Shown here in pieces: positions 14,017-50,041 of a stretch of 64,000 bases of DNA (position 1 is the first letter of the stretch; each line of letters starts with the position of its first letter). The translations under genes and the position numbers were made by a program. Below the pieces are notes generated by a model. The model ran no database searches, was not told the DNA's origin, and saw only the letters and a list, made by a program, of their open reading frames with translations. The DNA lies in IMG/VR virus record IMGVR_UViG_3300028888_005256; one strand, 5' to 3'. The stretch comes from a virus (taxonomy: Duplodnaviria; Heunggongvirae; Uroviricota; Caudoviricetes).

Positions 14017-15687
14017 ATGTCGGCGAAAGAATTTTTATTTGGTGAAGCTGCAAGAAAGCGAATGCTTGAGGGCATCAATCAGCTTGATAGAATAGTCACT
14101 TGCACACTTGGTCCTTCTGGACGAAATGTTCTTATTAGTAAAGGGACTGCTCACCCTGTCATTACAAAAGACGGTGTTTCAGTAGCAAGAGAAGTTGATT
14201 TTGATGACCCTTACATGAAAGCTGGCTCAGATACAATCAAAGAAGCTGCAGAAAGAACAAACACAATGGCTGGTGATGGAACGACAACTACAATTCTTTT
14301 GAGCTCAGAATTGTCTCGTCAGGGTGTAAAGCTTATTTCTTCTGGATTTGACCCTATTGAAGTCCAGAAAGGCTTTGATGCAGCTTGCAATCTCGTTCTT
14401 GAAGAACTCGACAGTTTTAAGATTCCTGTAGAGTCTGGCGAAGACATTGAGCATGTAGCATTTGTCTCAGGAAACAATGATAAAGAAGTAGCAGCAATTG
14501 TTCGTGAAGCTTTTGAAGGTGTTGGTGACGGTGGCGTAGTAAATCTTGATACTTCACAGTCTAAGACAGGCAGAACATTTGTAAGATTCACTGATGGTAT
14601 GTCTTTTGGCAAAGGTATCAATGGCGGTGCTTATGTTACAGATTTGAAGAAAGAATCTTTTGAAGCAGACAATCCTCGTGTATTGCTCTCAAATTACACT
14701 CTTACTTCTAAAGAGATTCAGACAGAATTATCGAATGCATACAAAGACAAAGTGCCACTTGTAATTATTGCTCCTCACATTTCAGAGCAGGGTGAGACTG
14801 CTATGATTATGCAGGCAAAAAAGAAAACTGTCACTTGTGCACAGATCATTCCACCAGGAAACTCTCTTTATGAAGTTCAGGAAAAGATGAAAGACCTCGC
14901 TGCTATTCTTGGTTGTAAAGTGATTGAATCAGCTGATGATTTGTTTGAGTACAAATACGGTACTTGTGACCATATCTCATCAACACTTTACAAAACTGTC
15001 ATCTCAGGTTCTCATGGTACTGAAGAGCTCATCAATGAACGTGTAGAAGACCTCAAGAAACAGATTGAGAACGGCACTGCAGAAGACGTTGAAGTCGGAA
15101 TGTCTGAAGCAGAGATTAAAGCAATCAAAGAACGAATTGCAGCTCTTACAGGCGGTATCGCAATTATTTGCATCGGCGGAAACTCTGAAACTCGTGTAAA
15201 AGAGCTTAAAGACCGCTATGAAGACGCTATTCGAGCAGTAGAGTCTGCTATTGAAGAAGGCATTGTACCTGGTGGTGGATGTGCTCTTCTTAAAGCTGGT
15301 GCAAAAGTACGAAAAGAAGCAGCTTTGCAGGATGTGACAAGAGATTTTGAAGCTGGATTTGAAGCATTCTTGAAAGCTTGTAGAAAGCCTGTTACAAGAA
15401 TCATTTCTTCAATTTCAGATGATTACTCATACATCATTTCTAAGATCGAAAATGAAGCAGGCAAAAACTTCGGCTACAATGCAAAAACTCAAGAGTATGA
15501 AGAAGACATGATTGCTGCTGGAATTGTAGATCCGCTCAAAGTTACAAAATGGGCATTGAAAAATTCTACAGCAGTAGCTGGTATTTTCATTACTACAGAA
15601 TGTGCAATCGTTCCATCAGCAAGAAATGTTTCAGTTGAGCCAATTGACCCACTGAAAGATAGAAATTTCGGTATTGAGGGCATCTAA
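14017..15687 (+). CDS. groEL: GroEL/Cpn60-family chaperonin
   Basis: Matches GroEL along its length from memory of the E. coli protein (ITKDGVSVAREV, AGDGTTTT, TLGPSGRNV). GGAGATATA SD. Lacks the C-terminal GGM tail. No GroES-like gene adjacent. Confidence 0.9.
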   Translation: MSAKEFLFGEAARKRMLEGINQLDRIVTCTLGPSGRNVLISKGTAHPVITKDGVSVAREVDFDDPYMKAGSDTIKEAAERTNTMAGDGTTTTILLSSELSRQGVKLISSGFDPIEVQKGFDAACNLVLEELDSFKIPVESGEDIEHVAFVSGNNDKEVAAIVREAFEGVGDGGVVNLDTSQSKTGRTFVRFTDGMSFGKGINGGAYVTDLKKESFEADNPRVLLSNYTLTSKEIQTELSNAYKDKVPLVIIAPHISEQGETAMIMQAKKKTVTCAQIIPPGNSLYEVQEKMKDLAAILGCKVIESADDLFEYKYGTCDHISSTLYKTVISGSHGTEELINERVEDLKKQIENGTAEDVEVGMSEAEIKAIKERIAALTGGIAIICIGGNSETRVKELKDRYEDAIRAVESAIEEGIVPGGGCALLKAGAKVRKEAALQDVTRDFEAGFEAFLKACRKPVTRIISSISDDYSYIISKIENEAGKNFGYNAKTQEYEEDMIAAGIVDPLKVTKWALKNSTAVAGIFITTECAIVPSARNVSVEPIDPLKDRNFGIEGI

Positions 15688-20161: not shown

Positions 20162-22534
20162 ATGACAGAAGAGAAGAGACTTGAAAGAGAAAAAGCAAAG
20201 CAAGAAGAAGCAAAGCAATCTGAGTTCTGCACTTCAACAGATTCTTTTGTCAAGTCTTCTATCCTTAATCCATTTGCAATAAATACTGATTGCGTAAGAG
20301 AAGCAAGCAAAATCGAAATTGCGTCTGATATGAGCAGTGTAGCAACTACATTAGATTCATCAGGCATAAATACAGAAGTCGAGATCTCTAATGCTTTTGC
20401 AAATCTTGCGCCTATTCTTACAGACATCATGGCAGGAGATGTGCAAGCTCTTAACAGACCTGAGTTTGCTTGTATGAACTTCCCTGCTATTTTGAAAGCA
20501 ATTAAATGGCTGTCAGAAACAGATGCTCTTAATGACTTCTTGAGATCAGACTTAGCTCTCAACGCATGGAAGTTGAACTTCAAATGTAGACCGCCTACAA
20601 TGGAAGAATTTTTGACTCCAAAGTACATAGGTCCTACAGCAGAATCACTTCGTCCTTTCATTAAAGACACCCTCATAAACTTCACAGATCCTACAAAGCC
20701 GTACAGAACTATTGCTCTTGCATCTTGTATCGGTGCTGGTAAATCTACATTTTCTGTATTGCTTCAGCTATTCATATCAGTTCACTATGCATATATGTGG
20801 GCTCCTTACAAGTACTTTGGTCTAGGTGCAGCTACTCAATTCACTCAATGTCTTGGTGGCTGGAATATCAAAAAAGCAACTGAACTTTTGCTTGAGCCAT
20901 TCATGAATATTCTTGAGTATGCACCATTTTTTCATAAAGCAAAATTCGCACAAGATGTTCTTGATGCTAGGGAATCTACAAATCTTGATGAAGAGGGCTT
21001 ACTCTGGACGACTGCTACGAAAACTTCTGCTCTGCAAATGCAGAATGGCGTAAACTACAAAGTCATAAATGGTCCTGGTGCAATCTTGGGTCAGTGTATC
21101 ATAAGCGCTGTTCTTTCTGAGTTGACATACTTTACGCAAAATGGTTGGTCTGACGAAAAAGTTCTTACATTCTTCACAAAGCTTAGAAAAAGAATCCAGT
21201 CTCGTATTGGATCGAACTATTACGCTCGATTCATAATCGACTCTCAGCCGAACTCTCTTGAATCACCAATTGATAAATGGGTTTGGGAAGAGGCTCCCAA
21301 ATCAAAAGAAAACTTTATTTTCAAGGGCTCTAGATGGGAATTGTTTCCTCATGAATTTGAAGAAGCTTGGGAAGAGCCTAGAACATATTGGACACAGCCT
21401 GTAAATGTAAAGCATGACTTTGATGTAGCATTCCCAGTGTTCAAAGGCGGCAATGGACAGATTCCGACTGTAATAGAAGTCCCTGCTCAGCTAGAGATGT
21501 ATGACCAGCATGACATTCTTTGGGCTCCAATAATGCAGGTTACTGATAATGGTCCTGTAAACTTCAAAGACATGGCTCTTGAAAACCCAATAGAATTCCT
21601 AAAAGACTGGGCAGGCATTCCATCAGGTGCAGCAGACAGACTGTTCTATGATACAAGAGTAATTGAAAGAATCTTTGACAATGACTTACGAAATGTCTTT
21701 GGCGGCTTAGACTGTCCTGCTTCAGAAGAGCCTGAGCATCTTATTTGGAATAAAATTCGAGATAAGTTCTTCAACAAGATATTTGACAAATGGTATTTCT
21801 ACTATGAGCCTGATTTGCCTCGTGTCGCATCAATCGACTTAGCTATCACAGGAGACGTTGCGTCTATCTCAGTTTCTCATGTAGAGAAGAGCAATGACAT
21901 TAAAGACTCATTCGGTCAGCCTGCAAAAATTTATGTAACAGACTTCAGTATCCCAGTTGTTCCTAAAAACTCTATTATCAATATGGACGCATTCAAATTT
22001 TTCTTGCTAGACCTTGTAAGAGTCGGAAATATGAGAATAAAGCATGTCTCATTCGATGGCTTTCAATCTCGTGCTATGATGCAGTCTCTTGAACGATCTG
22101 GATTCTTAGTAGATTTGCTTTCTGTTGATAAAGACAATACGCCGTATCAGAATATGATAGATTACGCATTCCATAGAAGATGGGTTACTGGAAAATCAAT
22201 AATGATGAAGAACAATCTTCTTTCTCTTGAAGTGCATTCTAGAAAATCAGGCTCAAAGAAAATAGAACATAAAGTTGGAGATAATCTCTATGCAGACCAG
22301 TTCTGTCCAATCAATGGCGTCTATAATGACAAAGCATGGGAATTGTCTCAAGTTGGCTATTATGCAAAAGACCTGTCTGATACAGTAGCTGCAAATATTT
22401 CTTTGCTAGACAAATATGACAATGAATTCTTCCCTACGCATACTTGGCAGCCATGTGCCATTAAACCAAGAACTCAGGAAACTGTAGTGCAGGGAAGAGA
22501 CGATGTGCTTCGAAAAATCGGTCTTGCAATTTAA
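20162..22534 (+). CDS. terL: terminase large subunit
   Basis: Walker A ASCIGAGKST. C-terminal RNase-H-like nuclease motif ASIDLAITGDVASISVSH (hGhDhA..GD pattern). 790 aa. Confidence 0.7.
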   Translation: MTEEKRLEREKAKQEEAKQSEFCTSTDSFVKSSILNPFAINTDCVREASKIEIASDMSSVATTLDSSGINTEVEISNAFANLAPILTDIMAGDVQALNRPEFACMNFPAILKAIKWLSETDALNDFLRSDLALNAWKLNFKCRPPTMEEFLTPKYIGPTAESLRPFIKDTLINFTDPTKPYRTIALASCIGAGKSTFSVLLQLFISVHYAYMWAPYKYFGLGAATQFTQCLGGWNIKKATELLLEPFMNILEYAPFFHKAKFAQDVLDARESTNLDEEGLLWTTATKTSALQMQNGVNYKVINGPGAILGQCIISAVLSELTYFTQNGWSDEKVLTFFTKLRKRIQSRIGSNYYARFIIDSQPNSLESPIDKWVWEEAPKSKENFIFKGSRWELFPHEFEEAWEEPRTYWTQPVNVKHDFDVAFPVFKGGNGQIPTVIEVPAQLEMYDQHDILWAPIMQVTDNGPVNFKDMALENPIEFLKDWAGIPSGAADRLFYDTRVIERIFDNDLRNVFGGLDCPASEEPEHLIWNKIRDKFFNKIFDKWYFYYEPDLPRVASIDLAITGDVASISVSHVEKSNDIKDSFGQPAKIYVTDFSIPVVPKNSIINMDAFKFFLLDLVRVGNMRIKHVSFDGFQSRAMMQSLERSGFLVDLLSVDKDNTPYQNMIDYAFHRRWVTGKSIMMKNNLLSLEVHSRKSGSKKIEHKVGDNLYADQFCPINGVYNDKAWELSQVGYYAKDLSDTVAANISLLDKYDNEFFPTHTWQPCAIKPRTQETVVQGRDDVLRKIGLAI

Positions 22535-22821
22535 GATTTGTAGTAATTCTTCAACTGAATAATGTTGTAGACTTCAAAGTCTTTAAAGTCTTCTCCAAGA
22601 TTTATCATAGAGCCAATCTCTTTATAGCCAGACTGCTTAATTGCTGAATCCAGACTTTTTGTATCGTATGGAATATTCTTGTCTGTAGTGTAGTTTGCAT
22701 AAGCCTGCTTTACAAGTTCTTCAAAGCCTTTTCTTACGTCTGATACAATTGCAATGATTTTTGACTGAACTTGGTCGTTATAAGAAAAAACAACTTCAAT
22801 AAGTCTAGGATATTCATTCAT
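22531..22821 (-). CDS. hypothetical protein
   Basis: ATG 22821 with TATAAT, then AGGAGAA, upstream; convergent with terL. Confidence 0.45.
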   Translation of the reverse strand: MNEYPRLIEVVFSYNDQVQSKIIAIVSDVRKGFEELVKQAYANYTTDKNIPYDTKSLDSAIKQSGYKEIGSMINLGEDFKDFEVYNIIQLKNYYKS

Positions 22822-22860
22822 AGTCTAGTTCTCCTATTATAAAATAAGATTAACTCGACT

Positions 22861-23160
22861 TTTTACTGTAAAGGGATGCCGTTCTTGGTGGAGACCGTTG
22901 AGCAAATTTACCAAGAACGCTTTGCACATATATTGCAAAGTGGAAGCCTTCAGTCAGCGGTAACAGCTTCTCCTCTCTACCCTCTTTTTTCAACCGCTAT
23001 TAGAGCACCTATTAAAAGACCAAAAGTTCCCCTGTCTTCTAAGGTAAGAAAACCAGCTTAGATATGATTGTCTAAGCCGCATCAATCTATTAGATTGACT
23101 GGAGGCCTTCAGCACTTGGTAGCAGCCTCACCTCTCTTCTTATTTCAACCAAGTTTGAGT
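22861..23160 (-). ncRNA. putative structured non-coding RNA (about 300 nt) with duplicated stem-loop module
   Basis: GC-rich island in the AT-rich genome. Conserved promoter motif at 23163-23186 points into it on the minus strand. Several perfect hairpins, including a 10-bp stem CGTTCTTGGT/ACCAAGAACG. Two about 55-nt modules at roughly 70% identity whose stems carry compensatory changes (GGAAGC/GCTTCC versus GGAGGC/GCCTC). The only ORF (22876-23061, +) has no RBS. Confidence 0.4.
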
Positions 23161-23162
23161 TT

Positions 23163-23186
23163 GTATAAGTAATATAATAAAAAGTT
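23163..23186 (-). promoter_or_regulatory. conserved phage promoter motif (minus strand reads CTTTTTATTATATTACTTATAC)
   Basis: Member of the TATTATATTA motif family; no CDS downstream, only the structured GC-rich region. Confidence 0.5.
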
Positions 23187-23196
23187 TCTACTTTTT

Positions 23197-23613
23197 TCAA
23201 ATATTGTAAAATCTTTTTACATTTCCTAATTCATCTGCATTGTTTTCTGGCCAATGAGAGTAATACCACTCGCCTTTTTTAAGCGATTCCCATTTTCGAT
23301 GAGCAATTCTATGATAGACATTTCTCACAGCACTTGGGAGTCCAACAATAAGTAAATACAACGGACCAAATCTCATGCTCTGCACTTGATGGCCATGCTC
23401 ATGTTTTACAGTATTCTCTGTCACTTGTCTATCGCCGTCGATGAAGATGAACTTCCCAAGAGAGACACCTGCATCAAAGCAATGCTTTACTTTGAAGTAG
23501 TCTATGCCTGCTATTGAACATTTTGAATGACTTCTGACATTCACCAGAAGTACAATCAAACCAAATACATTCTGCGGCAATTGCCATATAAATTGTAATA
23601 TCTTTAGTAGCAT
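23197..23613 (-). CDS. putative membrane-anchored zinc metalloprotease-like protein
   Basis: HExxH motif (VKHEHGHQV); N-terminal hydrophobic helix. Confidence 0.4.
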   Translation of the reverse strand: MLLKILQFIWQLPQNVFGLIVLLVNVRSHSKCSIAGIDYFKVKHCFDAGVSLGKFIFIDGDRQVTENTVKHEHGHQVQSMRFGPLYLLIVGLPSAVRNVYHRIAHRKWESLKKGEWYYSHWPENNADELGNVKRFYNI

Positions 23614-32880: not shown

Positions 32881-33981
32881 CTAGTTCCACAAGTCTTTCT
32901 CCTTAGCTCTCAATTTTTCTGAAGTCAATGGACACTTATTTCCGCAGACATTACAAGTTGAAATAATGTTCATAGCTCCAAAGATATTGTAATGAGCAGA
33001 ACATTGTGTTCGCTGCTGACCCTTTACTTCTAGTACTCTTTTTTCTGCTTGATTCCCAGCCCATTCAGCTCCATCCATAGTGCAATCAACTACAGTTTCG
33101 GCAACTTTCCATTTTTTAATCTCGTCTTCAACATCATCGACATTTGGAAGCTCAATATGCTCTTTACGTGAAAGCATGCATTCAACCTGAATATTAAGCA
33201 TCGTTACTTTACGAGTAAGAGTGTAGCCGATAATTGCATTCAATTCATCAAAGCCATTTACAGCATCTGTAAGAAGAGGACCCATTGCGCAAATTTTTCG
33301 ACTTCCACAAATGCTTTCATAGTCTTTTAAGTTCCAATATCGAACATGACCAAGAGTTTCAAGATAGACTGATGCTTCAGAAGCATTTTTGATTTTTCCT
33401 GCATTTCGCAAAAGACTTATTGCTCTATCATAGAAATCGCATGCAAGCTGTAAGTCTTTGACTGTCCATTTTGAAAGTTTTTCTTCACATGCACCTGGAC
33501 GAAGAGATGTTCCAATAAAAATTTCTACATCATGCTCAATGCAAAATGTTACAATTTCTACCCAATTTGGAATAATTGGATTGTACTCTATGTCAGCAGA
33601 AAATATTCCGCCTCTTGAATTGACAATAAATCCATCTTTGATTGCATCATTGATAAGTTCTACAGGTGTTACATGAAAAGTCATTGCTCTTACACCGTAA
33701 GAATAGTGACGCTTGATTGTGTCCATGATAGGCTCATCAAACATCACAGACTCATACAAAGGCGCAGAACACAATTTGAAGTTAGCTTGAGGCTTGACTG
33801 AAACAGAGTTAGTCCAGTTGAAATGATCGCTCACTAATTCCCAAAACCACTTTGTTCGTTCTTCATCAATTGAAATGACTGACACATAATCAATTCCATA
33901 CTTGTTCGCAAGCTCAATTTTTCTGAGCTCATCTTCAGCAGACTGTTCGCTATAAGATAATCCACAATTCAATTTGAGCAT
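32881..33981 (-). CDS. compact ThiC/BzaF-family enzyme (HMP-P synthase-like, Fe-S cluster-binding)
   Basis: Conserved ThiC-family blocks as I recall them: SRGG (FIVNSRGGIF), LRPG (IGTSLRPGA), GPLLTD...GFDELNAIIGY, and a C-terminal CxxCxxxC cluster (CNVCGNKC). N-terminal region parallels the ThiC NANIG...EEEVEKL block. Only 366 aa. Confidence 0.55.
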   Translation of the reverse strand: MLKLNCGLSYSEQSAEDELRKIELANKYGIDYVSVISIDEERTKWFWELVSDHFNWTNSVSVKPQANFKLCSAPLYESVMFDEPIMDTIKRHYSYGVRAMTFHVTPVELINDAIKDGFIVNSRGGIFSADIEYNPIIPNWVEIVTFCIEHDVEIFIGTSLRPGACEEKLSKWTVKDLQLACDFYDRAISLLRNAGKIKNASEASVYLETLGHVRYWNLKDYESICGSRKICAMGPLLTDAVNGFDELNAIIGYTLTRKVTMLNIQVECMLSRKEHIELPNVDDVEDEIKKWKVAETVVDCTMDGAEWAGNQAEKRVLEVKGQQRTQCSAHYNIFGAMNIISTCNVCGNKCPLTSEKLRAKEKDLWN

Positions 33982-40344: not shown

Positions 40345-41382
40345 TCAGCTCTTGAAAAATAATTCAAAGTACTCATTTCCAATGTCGCCAAACTCTTCAA
40401 CAAGTTTCTGTCTTTTGTCACTATCTGAAACTTTCTCACCAGTCTCAGATTCAATCATGCCAAAAGTAGACTTAATATTGTTAAGTTTCCTGTCTAACTG
40501 TTTAGTTCTGCGATTCCACTCTAATTCTGTAATTGGCTCTACTGGAAGTTTCTGTGTATCAAAAATATCGTAGACTCTATGATTTCTGCTATCACAAATA
40601 ACTACAATATTCTCATTTTTCTTCCAAGCAGTGTAATTTCCAAAGCAGTATTCAGTGTGGCCTACAACCTGTCTAGGATAGTATGCGTCTTCAAGAAGTG
40701 AATGCGGTCGAATCCACAAGCAAAATTGTGTCTTTTCGTCTCCGCTTCCTGAGAAATATCCATCCCAATCAAGTTTTTCATCGAATGAGCTTGAAAAATT
40801 AGTGGTTCCAGGAAAATGTGTTCTCTCATGCCAGCATTTATTCAAGAAATCTATAGAGTACTCTTTTGAGTCCCATTCTTTCACATCTTTATAGAGCTCT
40901 GCAAAATATGCATCAGCTTCTTCTTTAGAGTCAAATGCAGTCTTCTCCGCTTTCGGGTATTTTGTGTAAATATTATGCATGACATCACACATCAACTTCA
41001 CAGCAGTTTTAGAAAATCCTGCATGGCTAAAAACCCATCCGTCACATTCAAAAGCAAGATCTATAATGTCTTTGTTTGAGATAAATAAAGCTCTATATAA
41101 AGCTGCCATATTAGACTGATGACCACTACAGTTAGAGCCTTCTCTAGAACCTGAAAAATAACTCCAATCATGGTTCCCTAAAAGCAATTTTACTTTGTCT
41201 GGATTCTTTCTTTTGAAGTCAAAAATGTCTTTTACGTTCTCTTCTTGGTCAGGATGCTTGTTATTCCATGAGTCTACATAGTCTCCAAGAAAAACTACAT
41301 AATCTACTTCAGAAATTTTTTCTTTTGCAATTTCCCATTCATGAGAACCATGCACATCTGGTACTATAAGAATCTTTGCCAT
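40345..41382 (-). CDS. PPP-family (lambda-phosphatase/ApaH-like) metallophosphatase with C-terminal extension
   Basis: Motifs PDVHG, GDYVDSW, GNHDW (GDxHG / GDxVDRG / GNHE pattern). Start moved to ATG 41382; track start 41403 is TTG. Confidence 0.6.
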   Translation of the reverse strand: MAKILIVPDVHGSHEWEIAKEKISEVDYVVFLGDYVDSWNNKHPDQEENVKDIFDFKRKNPDKVKLLLGNHDWSYFSGSREGSNCSGHQSNMAALYRALFISNKDIIDLAFECDGWVFSHAGFSKTAVKLMCDVMHNIYTKYPKAEKTAFDSKEEADAYFAELYKDVKEWDSKEYSIDFLNKCWHERTHFPGTTNFSSSFDEKLDWDGYFSGSGDEKTQFCLWIRPHSLLEDAYYPRQVVGHTEYCFGNYTAWKKNENIVVICDSRNHRVYDIFDTQKLPVEPITELEWNRRTKQLDRKLNNIKSTFGMIESETGEKVSDSDKRQKLVEEFGDIGNEYFELFFKS

Positions 41383-41396
41383 AATTAGAAATATTA

Positions 41397-41428
41397 ACAG
41401 CAAAAGGGAGACAAACTTGTCCCCCTCT
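41397..41428 (-). terminator. rho-independent terminator (minus strand)
   Basis: GGGGGACAAGTTTGTCTCCC then TTTTGC on the minus strand, between the AAA ATPase and the phosphatase genes. Confidence 0.55.
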
Positions 41429-48710: not shown

Positions 48711-48746
48711 CGAAAGGCTCCCTTTTGAGGAGCCTTTATTTTTTAA
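48711..48746 (+). terminator. rho-independent terminator
   Basis: AAAGGCTCC-cttttga-GGAGCCTTT followed by ATTTTTT. Confidence 0.7.
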
Positions 48747-50041
48747 TTTTTAGCAGCTGCTGCTATTGCAGGAAGCCCTTTTTCTTGATAAGCAAGATTC
48801 TTGACTTTGAATGAAACTCCGATATTTTTCATTTTATCGCAGTTCATTGAGCGGACTACTACGCCTTCATGCTGCATATAGTCTTTCCAAAGAACTTCAT
48901 TTTCAGCAGGCTTGTAGTTTAGAATAAGCTCACCATCTTTGATTTTCCATGAAGCACTTTCTGCGTATTTGACTGCAGCCTCAATGTTTGGCATAATGCT
49001 GCCAAGACGAACATCTCTTTCAAGAATAGGAACTGTCTTAAGACCAAGCTCATTACAAGCAGCAATCATATCATCAAGATTGAGCTGAGTTTTTGTTACC
49101 ATGTCTTCAATAAGATAGACATACCAGTCAACTTCTTTAAGATTGTAGATGTTGTTCTGAATTCCTGGACCACACTGTTCAGCTTGTATAATGAGAAGCT
49201 TGCCTGTTTCTTTGTAGAATTTAAGCAATTTCTTTTCAAGGTCATGCTTTATGCAAAAATTCCAAAAGTCATTGTTGCATTTGAGCTTATACGCATTGTT
49301 GCGAGAACATACATAAAAATTCTTGACTTTCTTAAGTCTTCCATTTAATCGAAGAACATCAAAAGCAGTAGTTGCAGATTGTCCTTCCATCTTCGCAGAA
49401 ACATAGACTTTGTCACCTGCAAAAATAGTAGTAGCATGCTTCATATTCTGGATTGTTGTCTCGTCAGATTTGTGTACTTCGCCAACAGGGAATCCGCCTG
49501 CTGAATTCTGATGATTTCTTTGCCAAATAACACCGATCCATCTTGTCAATTTATGTGACAAACAAAATTTCACCCATTTAGGATAAGCTTTTTTAGACTT
49601 TGTAGTCGGAGATGCTTCTTCCTCAGTCTCGTATTTACGAATCTCAAGAAGGTCTGTTACATCATCGCCAGCTTTAAGCTTTTTGACAATGTTTTCATCT
49701 AAGCCAGCTTCATTGAGCTTTACGATAAGTCCCCAAGACTTTACACGGTCGCCTTCAATCTCTTCGCCGTCTACGATAACTGCTTTCTTTCCCATAGTCA
49801 TTGGTTTGATGATAAAACCATTCCAAGATTCGTTGAAGCAGCGTTTGCGCAAAAACTCCCATTGCTCTTTTACAGGAAGGATAGAGCCCTCTTGGATAAA
49901 AATAGCAAGGTCTTCTGGCTTAAGGTCTACAGACGTAATAGCCTCGTAGCCATTCTCTTTCATTGTGACACATTGAATTTTGTCTTTCTGAAACATTTTC
50001 TGAGTTGACTCAATTGTCACAACACTAGCAAGATCTCTCAT
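48743..50041 (-). CDS. ATP-dependent polynucleotide ligase-like nucleotidyltransferase
   Basis: Candidate motif I KxEG (VSAKMEGQS), motif IV-like EGVVVR, motif III-like LLIIQAEQCGPG. Confidence 0.4.
   Translation of the reverse strand: MRDLASVVTIESTQKMFQKDKIQCVTMKENGYEAITSVDLKPEDLAIFIQEGSILPVKEQWEFLRKRCFNESWNGFIIKPMTMGKKAVIVDGEEIEGDRVKSWGLIVKLNEAGLDENIVKKLKAGDDVTDLLEIRKYETEEEASPTTKSKKAYPKWVKFCLSHKLTRWIGVIWQRNHQNSAGGFPVGEVHKSDETTIQNMKHATTIFAGDKVYVSAKMEGQSATTAFDVLRLNGRLKKVKNFYVCSRNNAYKLKCNNDFWNFCIKHDLEKKLLKFYKETGKLLIIQAEQCGPGIQNNIYNLKEVDWYVYLIEDMVTKTQLNLDDMIAACNELGLKTVPILERDVRLGSIMPNIEAAVKYAESASWKIKDGELILNYKPAENEVLWKDYMQHEGVVVRSMNCDKMKNIGVSFKVKNLAYQEKGLPAIAAAAKN

What the first reader, a model, noticed from the sequence alone, without database searches (positions are those of the whole stretch)
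22861..23160. GC-rich, highly structured ~300-nt non-coding island transcribed from a phage promoter, with a duplicated stem-loop module showing compensatory changes
Between two minus-strand genes lies a region much more GC-rich than its surroundings. It has no credible ORF; the 61-aa + ORF lacks an RBS. The conserved promoter motif (minus strand CTTTTTATTATATTACTTATAC at 23163-23186) points straight into it. Predicted minus-strand RNA contains a perfect 10-bp stem (CGTTCTTGGT...ACCAAGAACG, 21-nt loop), 7-bp stems (CTTTGCA...TGCAAAG, GCTTAGA...TCTAAGC, TCAATCT...AGATTGA) and two about 55-nt modules. Module A is GGTTGAAATAAGAAGAGAGGTGAGGCTGCTACCAAGTGCTGAAGGCCTCC. Module B is GGTTGAAAAAAGAGGGTAGAGAGGAGAAGCTGTTACCGCTGACTGAAGGCTTCC. 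The central stems are GAGGC/GCCTC in one and GGAAGC/GCTTCC in the other, with similar 18-nt loops (TG.TACC...GCTGA.TGAAG). The stem thus differs between the copies by paired, structure-preserving substitutions, which argues for a functional RNA structure rather than a protein-coding remnant. It does not fold into a tRNA cloverleaf and I do not recognise it as tmRNA, 6S RNA, RNase P RNA or a group I intron.
Basis: seen in the sequence. Interest (0 to 1): 0.75.

Follow-up and report, generated by a model that had tools for sequence, protein, structure and literature searches.

The report
Tandem pseudoknotted phage RNA, possibly Y-RNA-like
The gap holds two tandem copies of a previously uncatalogued, pseudoknotted non-coding RNA found in giant gut and rumen phages and in crAss-like phages, where it sits directly after the gene for a Ro60-type RNA quality-control protein, so it may be a new kind of phage Y RNA.

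Summary
A 375-nt gap (22822-23196) lies between two minus-strand ORFs. One of seven copies of the phage's own promoter motif points into it. The gap contains two tandem modules, A at 23045-23162 and B at 22870-23006.

In each module, the 7 nt just upstream of 'UGAAA' pair with the apical loop of that stem, forming a pseudoknot.

I found homologues in jumbo-phage tRNA islands and in crAss-like phages, giving nine distinct core sequences. All seven pseudoknot pairs and two pairs of the central stem covary, and every pair stays a standard pair. G·U pairs fix the transcribed strand as minus. No reading frame is conserved. Rfam 15 has no match.

In seven crAss-like contigs the RNA starts at the stop codon of a Ro60/Rsr (TROVE) gene, on the same strand. 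One jumbo phage carries a TROVE gene in the same tRNA island as its module. The invariant RCUGAAG resembles the Ro-binding GNCGAA motif.

My best reading, about 40% likely, is a new pseudoknotted Y-RNA-like partner of phage Ro60. The rivals are a cis-acting leader, a ribozyme, or another tRNA-island RNA. No TROVE gene lies within this 64-kb window.

The parts
23163..23200 (-). Promoter: -35 TTGAAA (23195-23200), 18-nt spacer, -10 TATATT (23171-23176). The conserved phage motif CTTTTTATTATATTACTTATAC lies at 23163-23184. The inferred transcription start is near 23164.
   Evidence: There are seven copies of the motif in the window. The other six are followed by an SD and ATG within about 20-45 nt.
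23045..23162 (-). Module A (118 nt), containing:
- leader AAACUCAA, 23155-23162
- S1 5' strand ACUUGGU, 23148-23154
- UGAAA
- closing-helix 5' strand UAAGAAGA, 23135-23142
- GAGG
- S2 5' strand GAGGC, 23125-23129
- UGCU
- S1 3' strand ACCAAGU, 23114-23120
- GCUGAAG, 23107-23113
- S2 3' strand GCCUC, 23102-23106
- hairpin P3, 23082-23098
- hairpin P4, 23054-23079
- closing-helix 3' strand UUUUCUUA, 23045-23052
   Evidence: The CM match scores 77.6 bits.
23007..23044 (-). 38-nt spacer between the two modules. It is not conserved in the homologues.
22870..23006 (-). Module B (137 nt), containing:
- leader GCUCUAA, 23000-23006
- S1 5' strand UAGCGGU, 22993-22999
- UGAAA
- closing-helix 5' strand AAAG(A)GGGU, 22979-22987
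- GAGAGGA
- S2 5' strand GAAGC, 22966-22970
- UGUU
- S1 3' strand ACCGCUG, 22955-22961
- ACUGAAG, 22948-22954
- S2 3' strand GCUUC, 22943-22947
- hairpin P3, 22920-22940
- hairpin P4, 22880-22919 (10 bp, 20-nt loop)
- closing-helix 3' strand AUCCCUUU, 22870-22877
   Evidence: The CM match scores 88.7 bits.
22531..22836 (-). SD (UAGGAGAAC, 22828-22836) and the downstream 96-aa ORF (ATG 22819-22821, stop at 22531). This ORF has no homologue other than itself. It lies on the same transcript, or on a read-through of it, and converges on the 3' end of the terminase-like gene.

Best explanation
The gap encodes two tandem copies of a small structured non-coding RNA, each about 120-140 nt, from a family that is not in Rfam. 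The phage's own sigma-70-like promoter transcribes them on the minus strand.

Each copy folds as follows.
- A 5-bp stem (S2) is extended by a U·G pair and a 2-bp helix, with an invariant UGAA bulge.
- The apical loop of that stem pairs over 7 bp with a strand about 30 nt upstream (S1), forming a pseudoknot.
- Two variable hairpins, P3 and P4, follow.
- A purine tract in the linker pairs with a pyrimidine tract after P4 and closes the fold.

These structural points are shown by covariation. What follows is inferred.

The RNA most likely works as a Y-RNA-like partner of a phage Ro60/Rsr (TROVE) protein. The helix followed by the invariant RCUGAAG would be the Ro-binding site, analogous to GNCGAA or GGUCCGA in known Y RNAs. 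The purine-rich single strand and the variable hairpins would recruit or gate an effector such as a host exoribonuclease, as in Ro-Y RNA-PNPase complexes. The result would be a change in RNA or tRNA quality control during infection.

The modules could be released by termination at the P4 hairpin plus U-tract (module A), or by processing.
For: Structure:
- Nine distinct cores come from the window, jumbo-phage loci (L012, L138, L137, L141, L144) and crAss-like phages (cr111_1, L186/L196, L224, L226, L228). All of them keep S1 and S2 fully paired.
- All 7 S1 positions and 2 of the 5 S2 positions show two to four pair types.
- The closing helix covaries: UAAGAAGA/UUUUCUUA, AAAG-GGGU/AUCCCUUU and AGAAAAG/CUUUUCU. 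Single-sequence MFE folds recover it.
- Several helices contain G·U pairs, which would be mismatches on the other strand.
- No ORF is conserved.

Link to Ro60:
- The CDS immediately upstream of the module in crAss-like phage cr111_1 is a TROVE + vWA_Ro60 protein.
- In seven contigs (cr111_1 plus six IMG/VR contigs) the RNA's closing stem overlaps the rsr stop codon on the same strand. That stem itself covaries: UGAUUCAC/GUGAAUCA against CUAAUCUC/GGGGAUUAG.
- The 300-kb phage of L012 has a TROVE gene (E = 2.5e-11) on the same strand, in the same tRNA island, 9 kb from its module.
- In L229, the RNA right after a related TROVE gene has the canonical Y layout. It has a long 5'/3' stem with ACUGAGG at the top of the 5' strand.
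- Bacterial Y RNAs are defined in part by lying within 4 kb of rsr on the same strand and by carrying a GNCGAA motif (PMC4201824). Phage Yrl RNAs were found the same way (PMC12135203).

Context: the window phage encodes an RNA ligase and a Metallophos phosphoesterase, which are RNA-repair functions.
Against: - No TROVE gene is found in the 64-kb window by tblastn or by an HMM built from seven Rsr proteins. The rest of the roughly 326-kb genome could not be read.
- The crAss-like adjacency is essentially one evolutionary lineage, with Rsr 80-98% identical across those contigs.
- Two jumbo-phage TROVE loci (L220, L222) have no module within 10 kb. Among 80 TROVE loci from IMG/VR, only the cr111-like group has it.
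- The motif is RCUGAAG, not GNCGAA, and it sits after the 3' strand of the helix.
- There is no tRNA-like T/D-arm domain as in YrlA.
- No Rfam model matches at E <= 10.
- Binding has not been tested.
Confidence: 0.4

Rival explanations
1. The modules are a cis-acting 5' leader, that is a tandem riboswitch, attenuator or processive antiterminator. The pseudoknot would sense a ligand, a factor or RNA polymerase, and would control read-through of the P4 hairpin plus U-tract into the downstream genes.
For: - The element is always co-oriented with, and upstream of, something: the 96-aa ORF here, a 50-aa ORF followed by a tmRNA and 24 tRNAs in L012, tRNA-Ser 7 nt downstream in the L137 type, and an 82-aa ORF in cr111_1.
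- P4 followed by a U-tract is terminator-like in module A, L012, L137 and cr111.
- Tandem arrangement is known for riboswitches.
- Long untranslated tRNA operons could benefit from antitermination.
Against: - The downstream genes share nothing.
- In module B the U-tract is replaced by CCCUUU, with compensating changes in the purine strand. The pairing is therefore what is selected, not the terminator.
- P4 lies inside the closed fold.
- I found no conserved alternative pairing, such as an antiterminator.
- In crAss-like phages the element begins at the stop codon of rsr, which looks like a gene-linked RNA and not a leader.
Confidence: 0.2
2. The modules are a structured RNA of phage tRNA islands, with a function unrelated to Ro60. 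They would be comparable to ROOL, GOLLD or the T4 species 1/2 RNAs. One possibility is a scaffold or decoy acting on ribosomes, tRNA enzymes or tRNA-targeting defence nucleases.
For: - L137-type copies sit between tRNA genes. L012-type copies head a tmRNA/tRNA island.
- ROOL and GOLLD are likewise phage RNAs of unknown function found near tRNA islands (PMC12286853).
- An SD-like GAGG(U/A)G is present in all but one of the cores (L226 reads GAGAAG).
Against: - There is no sequence or structure match to ROOL, GOLLD or the T4 rnaC/rnaD RNAs.
- The window copy is not in a tRNA island; no tRNA is found in the 64 kb.
- This reading does not explain the tight rsr adjacency in crAss-like phages.
Confidence: 0.2
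3. The modules are a new class of self-cleaving ribozyme that processes phage transcripts or tRNA precursors.
For: - The core is a compact pseudoknot with invariant unpaired nucleotides (UGYU, RCUGAAG, GAGG, CA).
- Phage tRNA regions are known homes of small ribozymes such as the HDV-like theta ribozymes (PMC10879173).
- Tandem copies would excise a defined fragment.
Against: - The strand order differs from the HDV fold. There is no P3 hairpin before the P1 3' strand, and S2 spans it.
- No match to hammerhead, twister, pistol, hatchet or HDV models at E <= 10.
- In the L137 type the neighbouring tRNAs are 7 nt and about 95 nt away, not abutting a plausible cleavage site.
Confidence: 0.1
4. The region is a DNA-level element, such as a packaging site or origin next to the terminase gene, or it is a small protein gene.
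For: - It lies about 300 nt from the 3' end of the terminase-like gene and holds direct and inverted repeats.
- The antisense frame stays open across the core in the jumbo types.
Against: - The helices keep G·U pairs that would be A·C mismatches in DNA or on the other strand.
- The pseudoknot covaries as RNA does.
- The element is absent next to the terminase genes of relatives (L001-L004, L216) and occurs elsewhere in tRNA islands.
- The open antisense frame follows from the purine-rich sense strand. It has no conserved start, is broken in cr111_1, and its variable codons are exactly the covarying S1 positions.
Confidence: 0.03

Closest known systems
Bacterial and phage Y RNAs (YrlA/YrlB, D. 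radiodurans Yrn1, Thermus phage phiLo Yrl1/Yrl2), the RNA partners of Ro60/Rsr
   Same: - Small size, about 100-150 nt.
- In crAss-like phages the RNA lies directly next to a TROVE/Ro60 gene on the same strand.
- A closing stem is formed by 5' and 3' sequences.
- An invariant purine motif, RCUGAAG, next to a helix resembles GNCGAA, GGUCCGA and CGAA.
- It occurs with tRNA and RNA-repair genes.
- Multiple copies per locus are usual for Y RNAs.
   Different: - The core is a pseudoknot, which is not described for Y RNAs.
- The motif has U where Y RNAs have C, and it follows the 3' strand of the helix.
- There is no tRNA-like T/D-arm domain.
- No Rfam covariance model matches.
- In this window no TROVE gene is nearby.
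- Binding is untested.
ROOL and GOLLD RNAs
   Same: They are structured phage or prophage RNAs of unknown function, typically near tRNA islands, with pseudoknots. Some come from rumen and gut samples.
   Different: They are four to six times larger (about 580 to more than 800 nt) and share no sequence or structure similarity with these modules (no Rfam hit). They form homo-oligomeric cages, and nothing here suggests that.
T4 species 1 and 2 RNAs (rnaC, rnaD)
   Same: They are stable small RNAs of about 120-140 nt and unknown function, encoded in tandem at the end of a phage tRNA cluster.
   Different: The family CM finds no similarity in the T4 tRNA region. The T4 RNAs end in tRNA-like stems, and no pseudoknot is known for them.
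HDV-like (theta) ribozymes of gut phages
   Same: Both are found in gut phages near tRNAs. Both are nested pseudoknot folds with a 7-bp first helix.
   Different: The order of strands differs. Here the 3' strand of S1 lies inside the loop of S2, and there is no P3/L3 hairpin. There is no catalytic-C context and no model match.
Tandem riboswitches and leader attenuators
   Same: A position in the 5' leader directly after a promoter, two similar structured units in a row, and a hairpin plus U-tract at the end of module A.
   Different: There is no consistent regulated gene and no conserved alternative pairing. The U-tract is part of a covarying helix.

Membership tests
Y RNA / YrlA-like (Ro60/Rsr-binding RNA) | Binds Ro60/Rsr | not testable with these tools
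   This needs a gel shift or co-immunoprecipitation with phage Rsr.
Y RNA / YrlA-like (Ro60/Rsr-binding RNA) | Encoded within about 4 kb of the rsr (TROVE) gene on the same strand (criterion of PMC4201824) | tested here: inconclusive
   - Met in seven crAss-like contigs, where the RNA starts at the rsr stop codon.
- In L012 the TROVE gene is 9 kb away on the same strand.
- Not met in the window, where no TROVE gene lies in 64 kb. The rest of the genome was not seen.
- Not met in L220 or L222.
Y RNA / YrlA-like (Ro60/Rsr-binding RNA) | A stem formed by the 5' and 3' ends, flanking an internal loop or bulge that carries GNCGAA(N)G / CGAA | tested here: inconclusive
   Closing helices exist and covary. 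The invariant motif is (G/A)CUGAAG, in a bulged helix, and differs at one or two positions from GNCGAA. In L229 the related RNA has ACUGAGG at the top of a 5'/3' stem.
Y RNA / YrlA-like (Ro60/Rsr-binding RNA) | tRNA-like domain with T- and D-arms (YrlA subfamily) | tested here: not met
   ARAGORN and Rfam find no tRNA-like part in the modules. There is only a T-loop-like UGNAA pentanucleotide in the jumbo types. It is therefore not a YrlA.
Any Rfam 15 family (4227 models, whichever Y RNA, riboswitch, ribozyme, ROOL/GOLLD, tmRNA and T-box models that release holds) | Match to the family covariance model | tested here: not met
   No hit at gathering score in the window or in six related loci, apart from tRNA and tmRNA. 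No relevant hit at E <= 10 on four module regions.
HDV-like / theta ribozyme | Strand order P1-P2-P3(hairpin)-P1'-P1.1-P4-P2', with catalytic C in J4/2 | tested here: not met
   The observed order is S1(5')-closing(5')-S2(5')-S1(3')-S2(3')-P3-P4-closing(3'), and no hairpin lies between the closing 5' strand and the S1 3' strand. The family description was taken from PMC10879173 and from my own knowledge of the HDV fold.
Metabolite riboswitch | Conserved aptamer upstream of a consistent set of functionally related genes, with an expression platform that has mutually exclusive pairings | tested here: not met
   The downstream genes are unrelated: ORFs without homologues of 96, 50 and 82 aa, and tRNA-Ser. 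I found no conserved alternative pairing.
Intrinsic terminator | GC-rich hairpin immediately followed by a U-tract | tested here: inconclusive
   - Module A's P4 qualifies in the scan, and cr111_1 has a 12-bp stem followed by UUUUU.
- Module B has no U-tract, yet keeps the pairing.
- In the L137 type a tRNA starts 7 nt after the tract.
T4 rnaC/rnaD stable RNAs | Sequence or structure similarity | tested here: not met
   The CM search of T4 69000-75000 with filters off gives nothing at rnaC or rnaD.

The most novel reading that the evidence does not exclude
The module is not a Y RNA. It is a new functional class of pseudoknotted RNA, either a self-cleaving ribozyme or a sensor of tRNA, a ligand or RNA polymerase, that giant and crAss-like phages use to process or gate transcripts of their tRNA and RNA-repair islands.
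Probability: 0.2. Interest if true: 0.85.

Novelty: new variant of a known kind. Interest (0 to 1): 0.7.

Why it matters
Ro60 and Y RNAs are a conserved but poorly understood RNA quality-control system. In phages only a handful of Y-like RNAs are known.

If this reading holds, crAss-like phages and a large clade of giant gut and rumen phages would be brought into that biology. TROVE genes are very common in that clade: 3668 homologues were found. It would also give a defined, testable RNA-protein pair and show that Ro partners can be built on a pseudoknot.

Even if the Ro link fails, this is a well-supported structured RNA family that is missing from Rfam. It has a clear covariance signal, so it can be modelled, searched for and probed directly.

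Tried and rejected
Identifications that failed:
- tRNA and tmRNA (ARAGORN).
- Every Rfam family, at gathering score and at E <= 10.
- blastn against 50,697 phage records with the 1.3-kb region gave no hit.
- T4 rnaC/rnaD gave no CM hit.
- ROOL and GOLLD gave no Rfam hit.

Searches for relatives that did not help:
- Terminase synteny. The relatives L001-L004, L216 and L218 have no module next to TerL, so the element is not tied to the terminase or to a packaging site.
- The 96-aa ORF has no homologue other than itself, and its contig could not be fetched.
- Looser DNA patterns gave only chance hits (the genome hits L145 and L146; L280 and L285, which look coding).
- Walking out of the window to look for a TROVE gene gained only 3 kb.

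Readings considered and dropped:
- A small peptide starting at CUG after the SD-like GAGG. The frame is broken in cr111_1, and the variable codon positions are the covarying S1 positions.
- The HDV-like fold, because the strand order is wrong.
- A type III toxin-antitoxin layout (repeats, then a terminator, then a toxin). Single copies without any ORF occur inside tRNA arrays.
- K-turn and hammerhead cores, because the conserved letters do not fit.

Technical limits:
- MAFFT could not place the crAss-type S1 strands in register, so their pair counts were done by script.
- The motif TTAATGCAG-N-GTTACTTC near TROVE genes looked like a Y-RNA motif. Because it sits a few bases before tRNA-like genes, it is more likely a promoter.

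Full report
**What is in the window.**
Between the minus-strand ORFs 23197-23613 (138 aa) and 22531-22821 (96 aa) lies a 375-nt gap. It belongs to a family of seven sites in the window that share AAAA...TTTTYCTATTATATTAYTAT. All seven are intergenic. The other six are followed by an SD and ATG within about 20-45 nt.

The promoter scan reads this copy as TTGAAA-18 nt-TATATT, matching 10 of 12 positions. This copy is instead followed by about 345 nt before the SD of the 96-aa ORF.

GC content is only moderately raised. It is 0.427 for 22861-23160, against a window mean of 0.373 (sd 0.033), and 0.384 for the whole gap. One claim is wrong: the second 'central stem' is 5 bp (GAAGC/GCUUC), not 6.

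**It is not a known RNA.**
ARAGORN finds no tRNA or tmRNA in the window. Rfam 15 has no match at gathering score in 64 kb. It has nothing relevant at E <= 10 on the region itself or on homologous regions. The region has no blastn match in 50,697 phage records.

The phage itself is poorly known. The neighbouring 790-aa gene has no Pfam or PHROG hit. It does have hundreds of homologues on 200-430-kb contigs, so this is a giant phage from gut-type samples.

**Finding relatives.**
Terminase synteny did not help. Relatives have no such element next to the terminase-like gene.

A DNA pattern taken from the two modules did find true homologues:
- in IMG/VR: L010 and L012, the latter on a 300-kb contig;
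- in JGI metagenomes: L137-L144 except L140, which was a chance hit;
- by blastn and then a covariance model: the crAss-like phage cr111_1;
- further crAss-like contigs.

Hits in bacterial genomes were chance.

**Structure.**
Comparison shows that 7 nt of that loop pair with 7 nt lying just upstream of the conserved UGAAA.

The S1 pairs are:
- ACUUGGU/ACCAAGU in module A
- UAGCGGU/ACCGCUG in module B
- AACAGGU/ACCUGUU in L012
- CAACGGU/ACCGUUG in L137
- UCAACCA/UGGUUGA in cr111_1
- UCAAAAACUG/CAGUUUUUGA in L224
- UCAAAAACCG/CGGUUUUUGA in L226

On the five jumbo-type cores, S1 and S2 give 100% paired cells and 6 pairs with changes on both sides. No shuffle in 500 reached the covariation score, and slid controls fall to 22-48% paired.

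Adding U·G, G-C and Y-R pairs at the top of S2 gives a seventh covarying pair and leaves an invariant UGAA bulge. Across the nine distinct cores, all seven S1 positions and two S2 positions show two to four pair types.

After S2 come CA, a variable hairpin P3 (7 bp here, expanded to about 90 nt in the L137 type) and a hairpin P4. A pyrimidine tract then pairs with a purine tract in the linker. This closing helix covaries: module B has CCCUUU opposite AAAG-GGG where the others have U-tracts opposite A-tracts. Plain MFE folding of single modules recovers it.

In the crAss type, the closing helix is formed by the leader, including the stop codon of the upstream gene, and the segment after S2. It also covaries: UGAUUCAC/GUGAAUCA against CUAAUCUC/GGGGAUUAG.

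Several helices contain G·U pairs, which would be A·C on the other strand. The RNA is therefore read from the window's minus strand.

**Not coding.**
I anchored all six frames on the invariant CUGAAGG. Every frame has a stop in at least one homologue. The antisense frame that gives the 61-aa ORF here stays open only because the sense strand is purine-rich. It has no conserved start and is broken in cr111_1. The positions that vary are the ones that covary in S1.

**Context.**
- In the L137 type, the module lies inside a tRNA array, on the tRNA strand. tRNA-Ser starts 7 nt after it.
- In the L012 type, it precedes a 50-aa ORF, a tmRNA and 24 tRNAs.
- In cr111_1, it lies between a 552-aa CDS and an 82-aa CDS.

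The downstream ORFs are unrelated to each other. The 96-aa ORF here has no homologue other than itself.

**The Ro60 link.**
The 552-aa CDS of cr111_1 is a TROVE + Ro60-vWA protein, with TROVE at E = 1.4e-18. A tblastn search then showed four things:
- the same gene lies directly before the module in L186 and L196;
- a TROVE gene lies in L012, 9 kb downstream of its module on the same strand, inside the same tRNA island;
- one unrelated TROVE locus, L096, has no module;
- the window has none.

I fetched 80 TROVE loci from IMG/VR and searched them with the model. Hits lay only directly downstream of the TROVE gene, in the cr111-like group (L224-L228, L230).

In L229, on a 235-kb contig, the TROVE protein is 58% identical to that of cr111_1. 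The RNA right after its gene has a long 5'/3' stem with ACUGAGG at the top of the 5' strand, and folds with z = -2.9. That is the classical Y RNA layout carrying the module's motif.

Bacterial Y RNAs were defined by lying within 4 kb of rsr on the same strand and by a GNCGAA(N)G motif resembling the vertebrate GGUCCGA (PMC4201824). Phage phiLo Yrl RNAs were found by proximity and a CGAA motif, and they bind the phage Ro60 and host PNPase (PMC12135203). TROVE proteins in jumbo phages have been noted as part of RNA-repair systems (PMC7824862).

**Limits of that link.**
- The crAss-like contigs are one lineage.
- Two jumbo TROVE loci, L220 and L222, have no module within 10 kb.
- The window has no TROVE gene by tblastn or by an HMM of seven Rsr proteins.
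- I could not read beyond the window, apart from 3 kb.
- The module lacks the tRNA-like domain of YrlA and matches no Rfam model.

So 'works like a Y RNA' is a reasoned hypothesis, at about 0.4. Membership of the YrlA family is rejected.

**Rivals.**
- *Cis-acting leader.* This fits the position after a promoter, the tandem layout, and the terminator-like end of module A. It does not fit the unrelated downstream genes or the covarying replacement of the U-tract in module B.
- *Ribozyme.* This fits the invariant unpaired letters and the phage tRNA setting (PMC10879173). The strand order is not that of the HDV fold, and no ribozyme model matches.
- *tRNA-island RNA of another kind.* This would be comparable to ROOL and GOLLD (PMC12286853) or T4 rnaC/rnaD (no similarity). 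It remains possible.
- *DNA-level or coding readings.* The G·U pairs, the RNA-type covariation and the broken frames exclude these.

**Verdict.**
The gap holds two tandem copies of a pseudoknotted RNA family with strong covariation, absent from Rfam, shared by giant gut and rumen phages and by crAss-like phages. In the crAss-like phages it is physically tied to a Ro60 gene. Function is inferred, not shown.

Noticed in passing
window 5579(+), 27293(-), 28854(-), 36296(-), 50441(-), 60861(-), and 23169(-): Seven copies of a phage promoter-like motif, AAAA..TTTTYCTATTATATTAYTAT. All are intergenic. Six of them sit 20-45 nt before an SD and ATG.
   Followed up: partly
window 20162-22534 (+): A 790-aa terminase-like protein with a Walker A motif (GAGKST) has no Pfam or PHROG hit. 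Its homologues sit on 200-430-kb contigs, and some carry inteins (PF05203, PF05204, PF14528).
   Followed up: partly
window 48743-50041 (-), 40345-41403 (-), 14017-15687 (+), 32881-33981 (-): The window also encodes an RNA ligase (PF09414 plus an OB fold), a Metallophos phosphoesterase, a GroEL-like chaperonin and a ThiC-like radical SAM protein.
   Followed up: no
L222 9377, 9548, 9701, 9958; L220 9784; L012 3417: The motif TTAATGCAG-N8-10-GTTACTTC is repeated four times in the 725-nt gap upstream of a jumbo-phage TROVE gene. Each copy sits a few bases before a tRNA-like sequence with a T-arm. It is either a candidate promoter for a phage polymerase or part of unrecognised tRNA-like or Y-like RNAs.
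   Followed up: partly
L229 11680-11835 (+): The RNA directly after a TROVE gene on a 235-kb contig has a 10-bp terminal stem, AGAACGGUUG/CAACCGUUCU, with ACUGAGG at its top (z = -2.9). It looks like a canonical Y-like RNA and is not detected by my model.
   Followed up: partly
L196 398-478 (-): A tRNA-like sequence scoring 27.3 bits, just below Rfam's 29-bit threshold, lies about 100 nt after the module. ARAGORN does not call it.
   Followed up: no
L012 1197-1575 and 7903-7975: The 300-kb phage encodes a tmRNA (tag peptide DANCYEDVRMAA) and a tRNA with anticodon UUA, which would read the UAA stop codon, among 24 tRNAs.
   Followed up: no
window 23135-23154 versus 22880-22919, and the stretch about 10 nt upstream of the SD at 22828-22836: Module A's S1 strands (ACUUGGU/ACCAAGU) share CUUGGU/ACCAAG with module B's P4 stem. 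Module A's AAAUAAGA is complementary to UCUUAUUU just upstream of the SD of the 96-aa ORF, and the MFE fold of the whole leader pairs them. This could be cross-talk between the modules, or chance.
   Followed up: no
L220 6683-15408: In a 378-kb phage, the TROVE gene sits among a beta-CASP RNase, a CCA-adding enzyme (PolyA_pol + HD), a Metallophos protein and EF-Ts.
   Followed up: no
window 23197-23613 (-): The 138-aa ORF upstream of the promoter has an HEHGH motif, which looks like a zinc protease signature, but no family match.
   Followed up: no
L216 7514-9686 versus window 20162-23613: The closest terminase relative with flanking sequence (76% identity) has no promoter, modules or 96-aa ORF after the terminase-like gene. 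The cassette here therefore looks like an insertion, in the manner of a moron.
   Followed up: partly
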